Origin: the human T2T-CHM13v2.0 reference genome, Homo sapiens
DNA length: 64,000 bases
Assembly: GCF_009914755.1 (NCBI RefSeq)
Contig: NC_060946.1
Direction: 5' to 3' (one strand)
The notes below the pieces were generated by a model. That model saw only the letters and a list, made by a program, of their open reading frames with translations. It did not search any database and was not told the DNA's origin. A program made the translations under genes and the position numbers. This document shows, in pieces, positions 30,340 through 38,115 of this stretch (position 1 is its first letter; each line of letters starts with the position of its first letter).

Positions 30340-31070
30340 TTGCAAATTCTCCCTTTTTCACCTTCCTGCTCTCATCACCCTCTTTTGCTCCTCCATCTTC
30401 CCAAAAACATTTTCCCCCATCTTTTCCCAAAGCCTTCTCCCCTCTCCTGCTGCTCACCACCATTTTATCCCCCTCCACCTACCCCAAAACTTTTTTCTCA
30501 CACCCCCACCATCTTTTCACAATGCCTTCTCCCCACTCCTGCTTACCAACCTCTTTTCCCCACTCCTGCCCCTCTCCCATATGCCACTCTTTTTTCACCC
30601 TCCATCTACCCCAAAACTATTTGTCTTCCCAACCCTCCTTCCCCTCATGCTCGCCACCATCTTTTCCCCCTCCATCTACCCAAAAACTTTTCTCCCCACT
30701 GTCTTTTTGCAAATCCTTCCCTCCCTCCCGCTTGCCCATTTTCCCCACCTTTACCAACCTCTCTTTACTCCTCCCACTTGCCACCCTCTTTTCCCCCTCC
30801 ATCTGCCCAAAAACTTTTTACCCACCATCTTTTCCCCACCCTGTTTTCACAAAACCTTTTCTCCCTCCTGCTCAGCCCCCCGTTTTTCCCTCTCCTATTT
30901 GCCAACCTCATTTCCCCCTCCATCTACCCAAAAACGTTTTTTTTTCCCACCGTCTTTTTCCTATTGCCTTTTTGCAATGCCTTCTCCTGCTTGCCATCCT
31001 CTTTTCCCGTTGGTACTCACCACCCTGTTTTCCTCCTCCATCTACCCCAAAACTATTTTCCCCCTCTTAC
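30340..31070 (+). repeat. Degenerate pyrimidine-rich (C/T) minisatellite
   Basis: Core CCCCCTCCATCTACCC(C/A)AAAAC recurs ~7 times at ~70-127 bp spacing; + strand nearly devoid of G. Confidence 0.85.
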
Positions 31071-31240
31071 CACTCCGGTCGCACTGCAGTCGCCATCTCG
31101 GCCACCACCCACAGTGAGGCGAGCCGCGGTGCCGCAGGCTGCAGCCTCCAGCATTTGGCAGGTGTCTTCCTTCCCCTTCTCCTCTGCCTTTAAGTTGGGC
31201 ACAGAAGAGCTGTGTAGGCAAACAGGAAAGAACCCGGGAT
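31071..31240 (-). other. BAGE-like first exon, leftward
   Basis: Minus strand ..GCTGGAGGCTGCAGCCTGCGGCACCGCGGCTCGCCTCACTGTGGGTGGTGG.. resembles the recalled BAGE 5' exon; ends at donor GTG|GTAAGA (31070). Confidence 0.6.
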
Positions 31241-31243
31241 GGT

Positions 31244-31531
31244 CTGACTCCCCCACCTCAGCATACTTTATATGCGGAGTTATGCAAATGAGTTCTGGGA
31301 CTACATGTTCTGATTGGATGAGAGAAAAACCTCTAGGCATACTCAGATTTGGACTTTGTTATCATGTTCTGACTGGATGAGAGCAAGTCTTAAAACGACC
31401 AATCAGAACATGATAATAAAGTCCAATCAGAGTAGGCCTAGAGGTTTTTCTCTCATCCAATCAGAACATGCAGTTCAGGAATTCATTTGCATACCCTCCC
31501 TGTATAAAGCATGTTGAGTGGGCAGAGTCAG
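31244..31531. promoter_or_regulatory. Palindromic bidirectional Pol II promoter-like element
   Basis: Arms 31244-31376 and 31399-31531 are imperfect reverse complements. Each arm carries TATAAA (31267-31272 minus; 31503-31508 plus), an octamer (31282-31289; 31485-31492) and CCAAT boxes (31313 minus; 31399, 31423, 31457 plus). Confidence 0.8.
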
Positions 31532-31698
31532 GGTCTTCCGTATATTCTCCCCGTACCGTCCGTGCTCGGCTTAGTGCAGGAAGAGGAGAAGAACGGGAAG
31601 ACAACCGCGGCACAGCAGCTTACCTGCTGATGTTGGCTGTGGTGATGGAGCCTGCTACCGGAGCCACAGTGGCCCACAGCGGGAGCATGGCCAGAGTG
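31530..31698 (+). other. BAGE-like first exon, rightward
   Basis: Starts ~25 nt after the TATA; ends ATGGCCAGAGTG|GTAGAA, compared with recalled BAGE ATGGCGGCCAGAGCG. Confidence 0.6.
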
Positions 31699-31714
31699 GT
31701 AGAAAGACAGTGGG

Positions 31715-35469: not shown

Positions 35470-35768
35470 GTATGTATGTATTTATTTATTTTGAGATGGA
35501 GTCTCACTCTGTCGCCCAGGCTGGAGTGCAGTGGTGTGATCTTGGCTCACTGCAACCTCTGTCTCCCAGATTCAAGCAATTCTCCTACCTCAGCGTCCCC
35601 AGTAGCTGGGATTACAGGTGCACACCACCATGTCTGGCTAATTTTTGTGTTTTTAGTAGAGTTGGGGTTTCACCATGTTGGCCAGGCTGTTCTCGAATTC
35701 CTGACCTCGTGATCCACCCACTTCAGCCTCCCAAAGTGCTGGGATTACAGGCAGCCACTATGCCCGGC
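35470..35768 (-). mobile_element. AluS
   Basis: Full dimer; TSD TGTGAACATGAATTTT. Confidence 0.9.
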
Positions 35769-35859
35769 TGTGAACATGAATTTTTAAACTGCATGGTGCT
35801 TTGGGTCCCAGCTTCTCCATCTGTACAATGGGGACAGTACTAAGGTTTTCTTTTTCTTC

Positions 35860-36950
35860 TCAGTTGACTGAATTATTTCCATAGTCTGTCTGTCTTGCCA
35901 CTCTTGTTACCCACACGAAAGGACCTAAGGTAATTTCTGACAGCCTGGGACTCCTTGTGCAAAACAGAAGGTGCCACAGACCTCATTTTAGGAGAAACCT
36001 TTGTTTTCCTCTTGGAACCCCAAGAACTGTAAGCAGACAGGTCCATCTCAAAATCCAAGGCTCTGCTCTGTTTTGCTTTGCTTTACCTGACTTTTTTTTT
36101 GATTTGGGTGGGCATCAAAAATTAGTAGGGGAGAGCTAAAGAAAGTTGTGGATATGAACATGTATTTATGGTAAGGTAAGTTATGAAGGAGAGAAATCTT
36201 AGGATCTTGTATGGCAAATTCTTGCACTAAAGTAGATAATGACTAATTAGGAAAGCAGGAAATATAGGACAAGTCAGAAAGTCATAAGATGGGAGAGAAA
36301 AGCTTACGCCTGGTAGATCCTCTCCTGTCTAGAAGTGTCGTATGTGTGATGTTTATATGAAGGAGCTCTAATTAATTGGATTAAAAGATAATGAAAGCTC
36401 TAAAATTGTCAGAAAAATAGAAGCTCTAATGCCTTTTATTTCACGTGACTTCAGCAATCTTTGGGAAATGAGAGTTTTAAAATTATTGGTGGTAAAAAGT
36501 CTTCAAAAAGTAGACATTTGGTCTAAATTAAGTCAGAGGTTAAATTGGCTAAGTGCTTTAATGTCATAAACTGCTTCTTTGACTTTGGAAAATTGTTCAG
36601 TTTACCTAATTTGGAACTGTTAGATTTCTAGGTAAGGCCTGGGGAGAGGTGGAGTTAGCCATGTCTCCTAGCTATGCTGGAAGAGTTAGACTTTATCTGC
36701 AGTTCTGTCATGTATCCTGGACTCTGCACCTGGTATGTAATTGAAACTGCTTACATTGAAAAGAAAAATTATGTGTTTTTGGTTTTAAAAGGGGTGGGAA
36801 TATGGTTTTTTCCAAAAAGTGAGTTTTGGCAAATTTAGAAAGTTTAAGAATTATTTTTAGTTGTAAGAAAATAAAGTTTAAGCAAGTTATAGAAGGTTTA
36901 TGAAAATTAACTTTGTAAAGAATTGTGTGTGTGAGCAAGTTGACTAAAGG
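35860..36950 (+). mobile_element. ERV1 (MER4-group) internal fragment
   Basis: Composition and motifs typical of non-autonomous MER4-group internal regions; no ORF. Confidence 0.55.
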
Positions 36951-37104
36951 GACAGTAATGTTAGATGTAATAAATGCAGGTACCCTTCCACTTTATCTTC
37001 TGTTTCTTAGGTTATAAATATTCACTACCTACGTTTCTAAAAACTCTTTCACTGTAATATTAACACATAACTCCATTCTCCTTGTATTGCCTGCTTTTTC
37101 ATAG

Positions 37105-38115
37105 TATCCTGAAATTGCATTAGTAGATTTAGATTCAGAAGATGGTGGGGAAGCATCTTATGAGTGTTTTAAGTAAATTTAAGGCAAAGGGTTTTCTGTA
37201 CATGGGTGGTTATCACAGCATCACTTGTTGCAGCAAAACACTGGGTAACAACAATGTTTATCAATGAGAAATTGTTCGGATAAATGATGATTTGTGCCTT
37301 GCGAGGCTCAACTATTCAAAAGCACCCTCTTTTCCTCACTTGCTTTACCTTTGGTTCTGGGCCTGGAGCCTTTCAGAGGTTACTCAGGAAATGGACTCCT
37401 GTTTCCTGTGACTAATCTGGACAGCGGCTTCCTATTTCATTCTTCAGCATCTTCCAAAAATTTCTGAAGATAATTTCTTCCTTTGTGACCACCCATACTC
37501 TTGGTTTACTTTGCAGTTAACAATTTCATGCCTTCACTAGATTATCTGTGTGAAGGTGTGGGGTGTATGTGTTCATACTCTGGAGGGAGCAGAGGAAAAT
37601 AGCCACAGCCAAAGGAGTAATCTTGCACTAAATACTCATTATAAGAATGTTGATACGTTCATAGATGGTAAATCTGTCAGTAATTTTTGCTTGTATGATT
37701 CTTGGTTAAGACTGCACTCACTGGTGATAAGCGTGCTGAAGGGATCATAGGTGCTATACTTATGTGTGGGAATTGCATTCAAACCACCAATGCCTGTCTA
37801 CTCAAGTTTTGTTGCCTTTTGATTAAAAACTCTTGGGAATGTTTCCCTGGCATGCAAATATGGGAACTGCAGTTTGATTCTAGGTAGAAACTCTTTGGTA
37901 GTTGAAATGCCATAATAAGAGACACAGCTGTCAATGGGCAACAATTCACTGTTGGTAAGGAATTTACAGTGCTACTTGCCATATCCTTTATCCAGACTTT
38001 GTGCCAAGAAAATGAAATTCTTTTTAAAAATTTTTTTCTAGAGTAATCCTACAATATTGCTGTTATCAAGCCTGATGCTGTAATTAGTAGAAAATGTCTA
38101 GAAATTAAAAGAAAA
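37105..38115 (+). pseudogene. Unprocessed two-exon fragment of NME8 (TXNDC3): exons 37105-37172 and 38042-38115
   Basis: YPEIALVDLDSEDGGEASYECF vs recalled NME8 YPEIPLVDSDSEVSEESPCESV; *SYNIAVIKPDAVISRKCLEIKRK vs ELYSIAIIKPDAVISKKVLEIKRK. Both exons are bounded by polypyrimidine-AG and GT. Confidence 0.88.

What the first reader, a model, noticed from the sequence alone, without database searches (positions are those of the whole stretch)
30340..38115. BAGE-like chimeric gene module: palindromic promoter, BAGE-type exons 1 and 2, captured NME8 exons
Seen: a rightward exon ends ATG GCC AGA GTG|gt (31687-31698) and an exon starts ag|GTT TTT CTG GCT TTG CCT GCC CAG (33493). Spliced, they give MARVVFLALPAQQSVPT*. 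Two same-strand NME8 exons with intact AG/GT ends follow 3.5 kb later. Known (recalled): BAGE is [13 protein letters not shown]..., its antigenic peptide is AARAVFLAL, and BAGE genes arose by joining such a 5' module to duplicated KMT2C/MLL3 exons. Inference: this is an independent instance of the same promoter/exon cassette capturing a different, testis-expressed gene fragment inside the IGL locus. It may give a cancer/testis-type lncRNA or a 17-aa micropeptide.
Basis: partly seen in the sequence, partly recalled or inferred. Interest (0 to 1): 0.8.

Follow-up and report, generated by a model that had tools for sequence, protein, structure and literature searches.

The report
REP522-type repeat beside NME8 pseudogene fragment
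The "BAGE-like gene module" is real sequence homology, but it is one old copy of a dispersed palindrome-centred repeat (the one BAGE took its start from) lying next to a decayed piece of NME8, with no sign so far that it works as a gene.

Summary
ATG GCC AGA GTG|GT is at 31687-31700, AG|GTTTTTCTGG is at 33491-33493 and following bases, and the 213-nt palindrome is at 31281-31493. The conceptual splice gives the stated 17-aa peptide.

Window 30350-36948 is one copy of a multi-kb repeated unit. Its order is C-rich array, palindrome, G-rich minisatellite, then a unique part holding "exon 2". At least 39 other places in this genome carry it, at 65-86% identity.

A BAGE locus (chr13:10.86 Mb) has the same architecture. 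It encodes MAARA|[8 protein letters not shown]...CFIF across the homologous exons. Literature places BAGE in a REP522 block, so BAGE-likeness is a family trait of that repeat.

The window copy is not in the BAGE clade (69-70% identity).

The NME8 piece (36951-38357, 83% to chr7:38.00 Mb) is an unprocessed, decayed fragment. The whole arrangement is colinear with chr10:37.77 Mb, so the join predates the IGL copy.

The donor sites are weak or altered. Exon B carries a stop. The chr10 twin has decayed differently.

Transcription could not be tested. Verdict: an ordinary pericentromeric-type mosaic, with an interesting but unproven latent promoter.

The parts
30350..31060 (+). C/T-rich degenerate tandem array, the left wing of the repeated unit
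   Evidence: GC skew is -0.56 to -0.85. It is homologous at 65-76% to arrays at the same side of the palindrome in other copies.
31061..31280 (-). Left flank module with a mirror-image exon-like end on the minus strand: ATG at 31096-31094, exon end at 31071, GTAAGA at 31070-31065. It also holds TTTATA (31267-31272).
   Evidence: Read. In most copies an inverted copy of this module lies on the right side of the palindrome.
31281..31493 (.). Palindromic core. It holds ATGCAAAT (31282-31289), ATTGG (31313), CCAAT (31399, 31423, 31457) and ATTTGCAT (31485-31492).
   Evidence: This is the best conserved part of the unit (78-86% identity). Each of the six CCAAT positions is kept in 15-21 of 21 other copies.
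31503..31508 (+). TATAAA box facing right
   Evidence: It is kept in 14 of 21 other copies and absent from both BAGE copies examined.
31530..31698 (+). Putative exon 1. The start is inferred as about 30 nt after the TATA box. ATG is at 31687-31689. The donor is GTG|GTAGAA. A better-looking donor, CAG|GTATGC, begins at 31718.
   Evidence: The same ATGGCCAGAGTGGTAGAA is found at chr22:21.06 Mb, and the BAGE homologue is ATGGCGGCCAGAGCGGTAAGA.
31701..32940 (+). G-rich minisatellite of about 45-nt units (the would-be intron 1)
   Evidence: TRF rows 32142-32292, 32213-32303 and 32625-32745. GC skew is +0.38 to +0.45. It is homologous in other copies.
32941..33492 (+). Unique part of the unit upstream of exon 2, ending in the acceptor ...CTGTTCTAG
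33493..33673 (+). Homologue of BAGE exon 2. The stop TAG is at 33532-33534 and the donor is GAG|GTAGGA.
   Evidence: It is 69-70% identical to BAGE-type loci L046, L048 and L042, and 72-79% to non-BAGE copies. The acceptor AG is kept in 12 of 12 loci compared.
33674..35463 (+). Further part of the repeated unit
   Evidence: It is colinear with chr10 and with L036, L039, L041 and others.
35481..35768 (-). Alu insertion, absent from the chr10 copy
   Evidence: Sub-threshold SRP-RNA matches, Alu-like hits everywhere, and a gap in the chr10 alignment.
35769..36948 (+). Distal part of the repeated unit, containing an older interspersed repeat that ends near 36948
   Evidence: At least 25 family loci carry it at the right spacing. 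Separate copies lie on chr11, chrX, chr3 and chr12.
36951..38357 (+). Unprocessed NME8-derived fragment (exon, intron, exon). Exon A is 37105-37172 and exon B is 38042-38115.
   Evidence: It is 83% identical to chr7:38004296-38005727. NDK-domain exons lie 20-33 kb downstream on the same strand of chr7. The defects are listed.
38358..39439 (+). Sequence shared only with the chr10 paralogue; its second half is a common interspersed repeat

Best explanation
Window 30350-36948 is one old, diverged copy of a dispersed multi-kb repeated unit of the REP522 type. The unit is a C-rich array, a 213-nt palindrome and a G-rich minisatellite. After these comes a unique part that contains the sequence BAGE uses as exon 2.

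The palindrome is built like a mirror-symmetric RNA polymerase II promoter. On each side it has a TATA box, an octamer and three CCAAT boxes, all facing outward. Each side is followed by a module that ends in ATG...G|GTA.

BAGE genes are one recent (hominid) use of such a unit. The resemblance of the window to BAGE is inherited from the common ancestor of the repeat family. It is not a second act of gene making.

A 1.4-kb unprocessed fragment of NME8 was joined to the distal end of one such unit long ago. The composite was then duplicated, giving the copies at chr10:37.77 Mb and in the IGL V cluster.

Inferred: in the window the composite has evolved neutrally and is most likely silent and methylated in normal somatic cells, as shown in print for the REP522 block at BAGE. 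The right half of its promoter motifs is intact, so it may fire when methylation is lost. The proposed splice chain and the 17-aa peptide remain conceptual.
For: Family membership:
- The palindrome query found 110 matches, which I group into 39 places besides the window (40 of 73 candidates scored).
- The exon 2 query found 43 matches in 39 other places (40 of 115 scored).
- The palindrome and exon 2 hits lie on the same strand 1.5-2.3 kb apart at chr10, chr22, chr2, chr5, chr13, chr14 and chr21.
- 22 of 31 fetched loci show array, palindrome, minisatellite and unique part together.
- The distal part 35770-36750 is found in at least 25 loci at the right spacing.

BAGE link:
- L048 (chr13:10854000-10860000) has the same architecture.
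- Its conceptual splice is MAARA|[38 protein letters not shown]. This contains the published BAGE-1 epitope AARAVFLAL (PMC7454179, table 2, passage seen).
- By eye, a published BAGE bisulphite primer (PMC3757347, methods passage) fits the stretch printed.

REP522 link:
- miR-5701 is said to overlap Rep522 (preprint 10.1101/2021.12.09.471935, passage).
- The miR-5701 parts of two published primers match the inner palindrome arm, overlapping each other, with 1-2 mismatches. This holds in the window (31401-31419, minus strand) and in most fetched copies.

Shared join: window 30351-39439 is colinear with chr10:37769967-37778793.

Decay: see the defects. Identity to the chr7 parent is about 80% around exon A and about 83% around exon B, against 83% over the whole 1.4 kb.
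Against: - No direct comparison with the Repbase/Dfam REP522 consensus was possible, so the name rests on two literature passages, the primer test and my recollection that REP522 is described as largely palindromic.
- No RNA, CAGE or methylation data could be consulted, so silence is inferred, not shown.
- CpG is better kept in the window copy than in most copies. CpG observed/expected in the 1.3 kb right of the palindrome is 0.46, against 0.16 in the chr10 twin, 0.21-0.43 in 15 other non-BAGE copies and 0.35 and 0.48 in the two BAGE copies. That could mean less germline methylation, as expected of an active germline promoter.
- The right-hand TATA box, octamer and three CCAAT boxes are all intact.
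- In the tree the window does not group with chr10 in the exon 2 region; the forks are weakly supported. The shared origin therefore rests on colinearity of the flanks.
Confidence: 0.8

Rival explanations
1. The module is a working chimeric gene of the BAGE kind. The palindromic promoter drives a spliced cancer/testis-type transcript (exon 1, exon 2, two NME8 exons) that acts as a lncRNA or yields the 17-aa peptide MARVVFLALPAQQSVPT.
For: - ATG, GT and AG lie at positions homologous to BAGE exons 1 and 2.
- The right-arm TATA box, octamer and three CCAAT boxes are intact.
- All four exons are on one strand with AG/GT borders.
- CpG is relatively well kept.
- REP522 is reported as enriched in lncRNA exons (preprint 10.1101/189753, passage) and as expressed at the 8-cell stage (PMC6545021, passages).
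Against: - The exon 1 donor GTG|GTAGAA matches 4 of 9 positions of the consensus CAG|GTAAGT (recalled); the BAGE donor matches 6 of 9.
- The frame stops after 13 codons of exon 2, whereas BAGE runs 38 codons.
- The NME8 exons have lost the parental donor (exon A) and carry a stop, and indels affect exon A (2 bp) and the exon B donor (4 bp).
- The chr10 twin lacks the exon-1 motif and the exon B acceptor, so the arrangement has not been preserved.
- No RefSeq gene model lies here (annotation given with the task).
- No paper in the library holds the peptide's first nine residues.
Confidence: 0.08
2. The copy is a latent promoter but not a gene. When methylation is lost it gives bidirectional transcripts, unspliced or differently spliced, or a long hairpin RNA of the miR-5701 kind. 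It does so like other REP522 copies, and the NME8 piece plays no role.
For: - Promoter-like motifs are conserved across the family. Each CCAAT position is kept in 15-21 of 21 copies, and the palindrome is at 78-86% identity against 65-79% for the wings.
- A mirror ATG...G|GTAAGA module lies on the minus strand.
- G-rich sequence lies on the sense strand in both outward directions.
- In print, the BAGE REP522 block is H3K9me3-marked in human liver and active in Tc1 mouse liver. REP522 RNA is reported in embryos and tumours, and miR-5701 in HEK293 cells.
Against: - The window has lost two of the three left-arm CCAAT boxes.
- The inner arm differs from the published miR-5701 primer parts at two positions.
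- Reads from such repeats are hard to assign to one copy, so published REP522 expression says nothing about this copy.
Confidence: 0.12
3. The resemblance to BAGE is a chance match of short motifs.
For: None beyond the shortness of the peptide match (VFLAL).
Against: - About 200-nt alignments to three BAGE-type loci give E 6e-13 to 2e-16.
- Homology is colinear over several kb, with the same order of parts.
Confidence: 0

Closest known systems
BAGE gene family, 5' module (promoter, exon 1, exon 2)
   Same: The order of parts is the same: C-rich array, palindrome, ATG-bearing exon end with GT, G-rich minisatellite, unique part, then AG|GTTTTTCTGGC.... The first exon 2 codons read VFLAL in both.
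   Different: - Identity is only 69-70% in exon 2, and other non-BAGE copies are closer at 72-79%.
- The window lies outside the tight BAGE clade.
- Its donor is GTAGAA instead of GTAAGA, and it has one alanine codon fewer.
- It stops after 17 codons, against 43 in BAGE.
- The window keeps the right-hand TATA box, which both BAGE copies lack.
- Downstream lies NME8-derived sequence, not KMT2C-derived sequence. No match near the KMT2C region of chr7 appears; the KMT2C origin of BAGE is taken from the passage.
- The window is in the IGL V cluster, not next to a centromere.
REP522 repeat (Repbase/RepeatMasker name; classed as a satellite in the papers seen)
   Same: It has a large palindrome and lies in pericentromeric, acrocentric short-arm and segmental-duplication regions. 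It is homologous to the repeat at the BAGE locus and to the miR-5701 site, both called REP522 in print.
   Different: The unit traced here is longer (at least 6.5 kb, 30350-36948) than the roughly 1.8 kb I recall for the consensus, and it includes an embedded older interspersed repeat. It therefore behaves as a duplicated genomic segment rather than a satellite or a transposon. The consensus itself could not be compared.
Paralogous composite at chr10:37769967-37778793 (10p11.2 region by coordinate)
   Same: It has the same order of repeat unit, distal part, NME8 fragment and following sequence over about 9 kb, at 74-82% identity.
   Different: - The Alu insertions differ.
- chr10 has lost 4 of the 6 CCAAT boxes and the right octamer, the exon-1 motif and the exon B acceptor (AG to GG).
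- Its CpG observed/expected is 0.16, against 0.46 in the window.
Unprocessed pseudogene fragments in pericentromeric mosaics (such as the KMT2C piece inside BAGE)
   Same: It is a short genomic piece of a distant gene, with its intron, set beside pericentromeric-type repeats. A 171-nt alpha-satellite-like array lies 3 kb further on.
   Different: The parent gene here is NME8 (7p14.1; PMC13256974, passage). The divergence from the parent (17%) is far greater than expected for a hominid-age event.

Membership tests
BAGE gene family | A 5' module homologous to BAGE exons 1 and 2, with ATG, donor and acceptor in place | tested here: met
   The sequence is homologous at 69-70% and the sites lie at matching positions, though the donor is weaker.
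BAGE gene family | Belongs to the recent (hominid) BAGE clade | tested here: not met
   Tree of 14 copies of the unique part plus exon 2. Three BAGE-type rows form a clade with 100/100 support on a branch of 0.21. The window is a separate branch of 0.17.
BAGE gene family | KMT2C/MLL3-derived exons downstream | tested here: not met
   The downstream exons derive from chr7:38.00 Mb (NME8). No other chr7 gene region matched.
BAGE gene family | Open frame for a BAGE-type peptide (39-43 aa, including AARAVFLAL) | tested here: not met
   The frame is 17 aa, MARVVFLALPAQQSVPT*. The epitope differs at 3 of 9 positions if aligned without a gap.
BAGE gene family | Cancer/testis expression, methylated in normal tissue | not testable with these tools
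   No expression or methylation data are on hand.
REP522 repeat | Match to the curated REP522 consensus | not testable with these tools
   No Repbase or Dfam library is available here. The Rfam scan gave only sub-threshold hairpin matches.
REP522 repeat | Homology to sequences called REP522 in print (the BAGE locus and the miR-5701 site) | tested here: met
REP522 repeat | Large palindromic core (recalled description) | tested here: met
NME8 unprocessed pseudogene fragment | Homology to the NME8 genomic locus across exon, intron and exon | tested here: met
   The fragment is 83% identical over 1446 aligned columns to chr7:38004296-38005727. PF00334 exons lie at chr7:38025328, 38035487 and 38037876 on the same strand. 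NME8 maps to 7p14.1. That these chr7 coordinates lie in 7p14.1 is recalled, not tested.
NME8 unprocessed pseudogene fragment | Recognisable NDK domain in the translated exon | tested here: inconclusive
   The 23-aa and 22-aa translations gave no Pfam hit. They are too short. The ...IAVIKPDAV... stretch looks like the start of an NDK domain only from memory.
NME8 unprocessed pseudogene fragment | Disabled reading frame or splice sites | tested here: met
   There is a TAA in the NDK frame, a 2-bp and a 4-bp deletion, and the parental exon A donor is lost.

The most novel reading that the evidence does not exclude
The REP522 palindrome is a family of 40 or more mirror-symmetric, methylation-gated bidirectional promoters. 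Each has a TATA box, an octamer and three CCAAT boxes per side, kept better than their flanks. Each is followed by a ready-made ATG-plus-donor module and a downstream acceptor, so any copy can turn neighbouring DNA into a cancer/testis transcript. BAGE is the known case. The IGL copy has an intact right half, two perfect octamers and unusually well-kept CpGs. It would be a second case, older and independent, giving a REP522-NME8 chimeric RNA in germ cells, early embryos, demethylated tumours or B cells.
Probability: 0.12. Interest if true: 0.5.

Novelty: new member of a known kind. Interest (0 to 1): 0.25.

Why it matters
If the plain reading holds, the matter is one of bookkeeping. An unannotated REP522-type unit and an unannotated NME8 pseudogene fragment lie in the IGL V cluster, with a twin on chr10. 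They should not be read as a new gene.

The analysis does make one wider point concrete. The part of BAGE that gives its promoter, start codon and tumour epitope is a generic repeat unit present at dozens of sites. Some other copies carry similar ATG, donor and acceptor sets.

This bears on how reads, methylation assays (the BAGE COBRA assay amplifies several loci) and immunopeptidome hits for BAGE-like sequences are assigned. It also gives a defined set of loci in which to ask whether REP522 palindromes act as latent promoters.

Tried and rejected
- The Rfam scan of 30000-39500 gave only sub-threshold matches. These were plant miRNA hairpin models hitting the palindrome and SRP/Alu models hitting 35491-35768. 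It is of no use for naming the repeat.
- Pfam on the two translated NME8-like exons gave nothing, because they are too short.
- BLAST of the window's exon 1 stretch (31530-31720) found a counterpart in only 2 of 31 loci. In most copies the right flank is instead an inverted copy of the left flank. I therefore dropped the idea that every copy carries the same exon 1.
- The tree did not place the window with its chr10 twin in the exon 2 region, where the forks are open. I kept the shared-origin reading because of 9 kb of colinearity and say so.
- The two Ruault papers on BAGE origin are not held. Their content is cited only through passages in other papers.
- Literature searches for the peptide and for an NME8 pseudogene in the lambda locus found no paper. 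Supplements were not searched.
- Chance resemblance was rejected.

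
Full report
**1. The observation**

- ATG GCC AGA GTG lies at 31687-31698 and is followed by GT.
- An AG precedes GTT TTT CTG GCT TTG CCT GCC CAG at 33493.
- Joined, these read MARVVFLALPAQQSVPT and stop at TAG 33532-33534.

The "palindromic promoter" is a true palindrome. Arms 31281-31349 and 31425-31493 are 69 nt and 90% complementary. Inner arms are 28 nt and 93% complementary. As single-stranded DNA it folds at -94.3 kcal/mol, against -25.9 +/- 3.3 for 200 shuffles, none of which folds as well.

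Two exon-like stretches, at 37105-37172 and 38042-38115, have AG before and GT after.

**2. What the left part is**

A search of the window's own assembly with 31080-31760 gave 110 matches. The tool scored 40 of 73 candidates. I merged rows that lie within 2 kb and count 39 places other than the window. They lie on chromosomes 2, 5, 7, 9, 10, 13, 14, 15, 17, 18, 20, 21 and 22, at 69-86% identity.

A search with 33380-33700 (exon 2) gave 43 matches. Here 40 of 115 candidates were scored, and I again count 39 other places.

At many places both parts occur on one strand, 1.5-2.3 kb apart.

BLAST of window 29500-39000 against the fetched loci shows that homology runs through the whole stretch. It covers four parts:
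- a C/T-rich array (30350-31060);
- the palindrome;
- a G-rich minisatellite of about 45-nt units (31701-32940; TRF rows);
- a unique part that contains exon 2.

Of 31 loci compared segment by segment, 22 show array, palindrome, minisatellite and unique part together. Several of the rest were simply cut short by the 1.5-kb flanks.

The stretch 35770-36750 is also part of the unit, found in at least 25 loci at the right distance. It contains an older interspersed repeat with separate copies on chr11, chrX and elsewhere. That repeat ends near 36948.

The unit is therefore at least 6.5 kb long. It looks like a much-duplicated genomic segment rather than a transposon.

GC skew is antisymmetric about the palindrome: -0.56 to -0.85 on the left and +0.38 to +0.45 on the right. 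The sense strand is thus G-rich in both outward directions.

**3. The link to BAGE**

Locus L048 (chr13:10854000-10860000) has the same order of parts.
- It carries ATG GCG GCC AGA GCG|GTAAGA about 200 nt to the right of its palindrome.
- It carries AG|GTTTTTCTGGCATTGTCTGCCCAG 1.5 kb further on.
- Its exon 2 reads [38 protein letters not shown].

The conceptual product contains AARAVFLAL, the BAGE-1 epitope listed in PMC7454179 (table 2, passage seen). By eye, a published BAGE bisulphite primer (PMC3757347, methods passage) fits the sequence just upstream of that ATG as printed. L048 is therefore a BAGE locus.

L046 (chr21:11.72 Mb) and L042 (chr22:11.10 Mb) are close relatives of L048, with stops in the frame.

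The window's exon 2 aligns to these three loci over 190-206 columns at 69-70% identity, with E 6e-13 to 2e-16. The acceptor is included in the alignment.

**4. BAGE-likeness is a family trait**

Non-BAGE copies are closer to the window than BAGE is, at 72-79% in the same alignment. The highest is 79%, at chr13:22.92 Mb. The acceptor AG is kept in 12 of 12 loci compared.

In a maximum-likelihood tree of the unique part plus exon 2 (14 rows), the three BAGE-type rows form a tight clade. The clade has 100/100 support, tips of 0.014-0.032 and a stem of 0.21. The window is a lone branch of 0.17 in a star-like remainder.

The exact exon 1 end is rarer. A motif ATGGC...GGTARRA within 330 nt of the palindrome was found in 4 of 21 copies:
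- chr22:21.06 Mb, identical to the window;
- the two BAGE loci;
- chr2:110.13 Mb, where it lies on the other arm and points away from exon 2.

In most copies the right flank is an inverted copy of the left flank. In the window that left flank reads, on the minus strand, ATG GCG ACT GCA GTG CGA CCG GAG TG|GTAAGA (31096-31065). Both sides of the ancestral palindrome thus ended in an ATG-plus-donor module.

**5. The name REP522**

I could not compare the sequence with the Repbase/Dfam consensus. Three things point to REP522:
- A preprint lists hsa-miR-5701 as overlapping the Rep522 repeat (10.1101/2021.12.09.471935, passage).
- The miRNA-specific parts of two miR-5701 primers printed in another preprint (10.64898/2026.05.26.727855, methods passage) match the inner arm of the palindrome. 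They overlap each other and show 1-2 mismatches, in the window (31401-31419, minus strand) and in most fetched copies.

My recollection that Repbase calls REP522 "largely palindromic" agrees, but it is only a recollection.

**6. The palindrome as a promoter**

An alignment of the window with 21 other copies shows a mirror arrangement. On each side it has an outward-facing TATA box, an octamer and three CCAAT boxes.

Each of the six CCAAT positions is kept in 15 to 21 of the 21 other copies. The right TATAAA is kept in 14 of 21, the right ATTTGCAT in 8 of 21, the left TTTATA in 10 of 21 and the left ATGCAAAT in 4 of 21.

The window keeps both TATA boxes, both octamers, all three right-hand CCAAT boxes and one of the three left-hand ones. 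Both BAGE copies lack the right TATA box.

The palindrome is the best conserved part of the unit, at 78-86% identity against 65-79% for the other segments.

That these motifs act as a promoter is inference from the motifs and from what is published for BAGE:
- BAGE loci are silent and methylated in normal tissue and hypomethylated in cancers (PMC3757347, abstract and introduction).
- Twelve BAGE loci lie on chromosomes 9, 13, 18 and 21 (PMC3084872, passages).

**7. The NME8 part**

Window 36951-38357 aligns to chr7:38004296-38005727 at 83% over 1446 columns, intron included.

On chr7, three exons matching the NDK domain (PF00334) lie 20-33 kb downstream on the same strand, at 38025328, 38035487 and 38037876. 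This fits a multi-NDK gene. NME8 lies at 7p14.1, is expressed in testicular germ cells and has an N-terminal thioredoxin domain (PMC13256974, passages). That chr7:38.0 Mb is 7p14.1 is from memory.

The fragment is decayed:
- Exon A has a 2-bp deletion, and the G of its parental donor is replaced, leaving only a GT 4 nt downstream.
- Exon B starts its NDK frame with TAA where the parent has GAA.
- In exon B a 4-bp deletion changes the donor from GTAAGT to GTAGTA.

Identity around the exons (about 80% and 83%) is no higher than over the whole fragment. Pfam does not see the short translations.

**8. The join is not special to IGL**

Window 30351-39439 is colinear with chr10:37769967-37778793. 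The alignment covers array, palindrome, unique part with exon 2, distal part, NME8 fragment and a further 1.1 kb, at 74-82% identity. The two differ by three Alu insertions.

No other place carries the NME8 piece. The composite was therefore formed once and then duplicated.

The divergences are large: 17% from the chr7 parent and 18-26% between the twins. By inference this places the events long before the hominid origin of BAGE that the title of Ruault et al. 2003 states (reference lists only).

The twin has decayed along its own path:
- it has no exon-1 motif;
- it has lost four of six CCAAT boxes and the right octamer;
- its exon B acceptor has changed from AG to GG;
- its CpG observed/expected is 0.16.

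A third relative at chr22:21.06 Mb shares array, palindrome, an identical exon 1 end and 35813-36847, but lacks the about 4 kb between them.

**9. For and against a working gene**

Against:
- The exon 1 donor GTG|GTAGAA is poor. A better-looking CAG|GTATGC, with its GT beginning at 31718, would change the frame.
- The stop comes after 13 codons of exon 2.
- The NME8 exons are damaged.
- The arrangement is not preserved in the twin.
- No RefSeq model lies here (the table given with the task).
- No paper in the library holds MARVVFLAL or an NME8 pseudogene in the lambda locus. Supplements were not searched.

For:
- The right half of the promoter motifs is intact.
- CpG observed/expected in the 1.3 kb right of the palindrome is 0.46. 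That is the second highest of 19 copies, next to a BAGE locus at 0.48. The 16 non-BAGE copies range from 0.16 to 0.43. This could reflect less germline methylation.
- REP522 is reported as enriched in lncRNA exons, up at the 8-cell stage and present in tumour and ES-cell transcriptomes. None of these reports can be tied to this copy.

**10. Verdict**

The thing is a REP522-type repeat unit with an old NME8 pseudogene fragment attached. It is part of a pericentromeric-type mosaic that also includes a 5.8-kb array of 171-nt units at 41536-47375.

It works like the BAGE 5' module only in the sense that both inherit the same latent promoter and splice signals. It fails the membership tests for the BAGE family on clade, downstream exons and open frame.

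Whether the copy is ever transcribed is open. I put the proposed spliced chimera at about 0.08, and some transcription from the palindrome under demethylation at about 0.12 beyond that.

Noticed in passing
window 41536-47375: A tandem array of about 171-172-nt units (higher-order periods 340-342) runs for about 5.8 kb at 70-74% matches. It is homologous to an array at chr7:65600060-65607451. The period and the stretch AAACACTCTTTTTGTAGAATCT look like old monomeric alpha satellite, but that is from memory only. An alpha-satellite relic inside the IGL V cluster would fit a pericentromeric origin for this whole segment.
   Followed up: partly
window 31096-31065, minus strand: A mirror-image exon end lies on the other side of the palindrome: ATG GCG ACT GCA GTG CGA CCG GAG TG|GTAAGA. 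Its donor is stronger than the rightward one, and an outward-facing TATA box (31267-31272) and octamer (31282-31289) lie behind it. A leftward transcript is as plausible on motifs as the rightward one.
   Followed up: partly
window 31401-31419 (minus strand), and the same place in most fetched copies: The inner palindrome arm matches the miRNA-specific parts of published miR-5701 primers with two mismatches. The miR-5701 hairpins on chr15 are probably the palindromes of three REP522 copies; palindrome hits lie at chr15:18.61, 19.73 and 19.98 Mb.
   Followed up: partly
window 31494-32794 against chr10:37771352 onward (L047): CpG observed/expected is 0.46 in the window copy and 0.16 in its chr10 twin, at equal G+C of 0.61-0.62. 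This is unexplained. It may reflect different germline methylation or gene conversion.
   Followed up: no
L002/L045 = chr22:21063890-21067556: This is the closest relative of the palindrome (80-86%) and has an identical ATGGCCAGAGTGGTAGAA. After about 75 nt of minisatellite it continues directly with the homologue of window 35813-36847. It thus lacks exon 2 and about 4 kb.
   Followed up: partly
chr2:87.36, 89.69, 90.06, 90.80, 91.75, 94.72 and 94.98 Mb (places): Short pieces of the exon 2 region (about 140-165 nt, 81-86% identity) are scattered through the proximal short arm of chr2. By recalled position this includes the kappa light-chain region. Fragments of the repeat therefore lie in more than one immunoglobulin V cluster.
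   Followed up: no
window 30200-32900: GC skew is antisymmetric around the palindrome, C-rich on the left and G-rich on the right. The wings may be very old, diverged arms of a much larger inverted repeat. Alternatively, both outward transcripts may be selected or mutated towards G-richness.
   Followed up: no
window 33535-33650, 31609-31653 and 31084-31173: The 3' half of exon 2, the body of exon 1 and the left flank (inverted) are copies of one module (...GCTCGCCT.GCTG.GGTTGGTGG...GATGGAGACTGCAGC...). The same holds in other copies (second hits). Exons 1 and 2 of the BAGE type are thus internally paralogous.
   Followed up: partly
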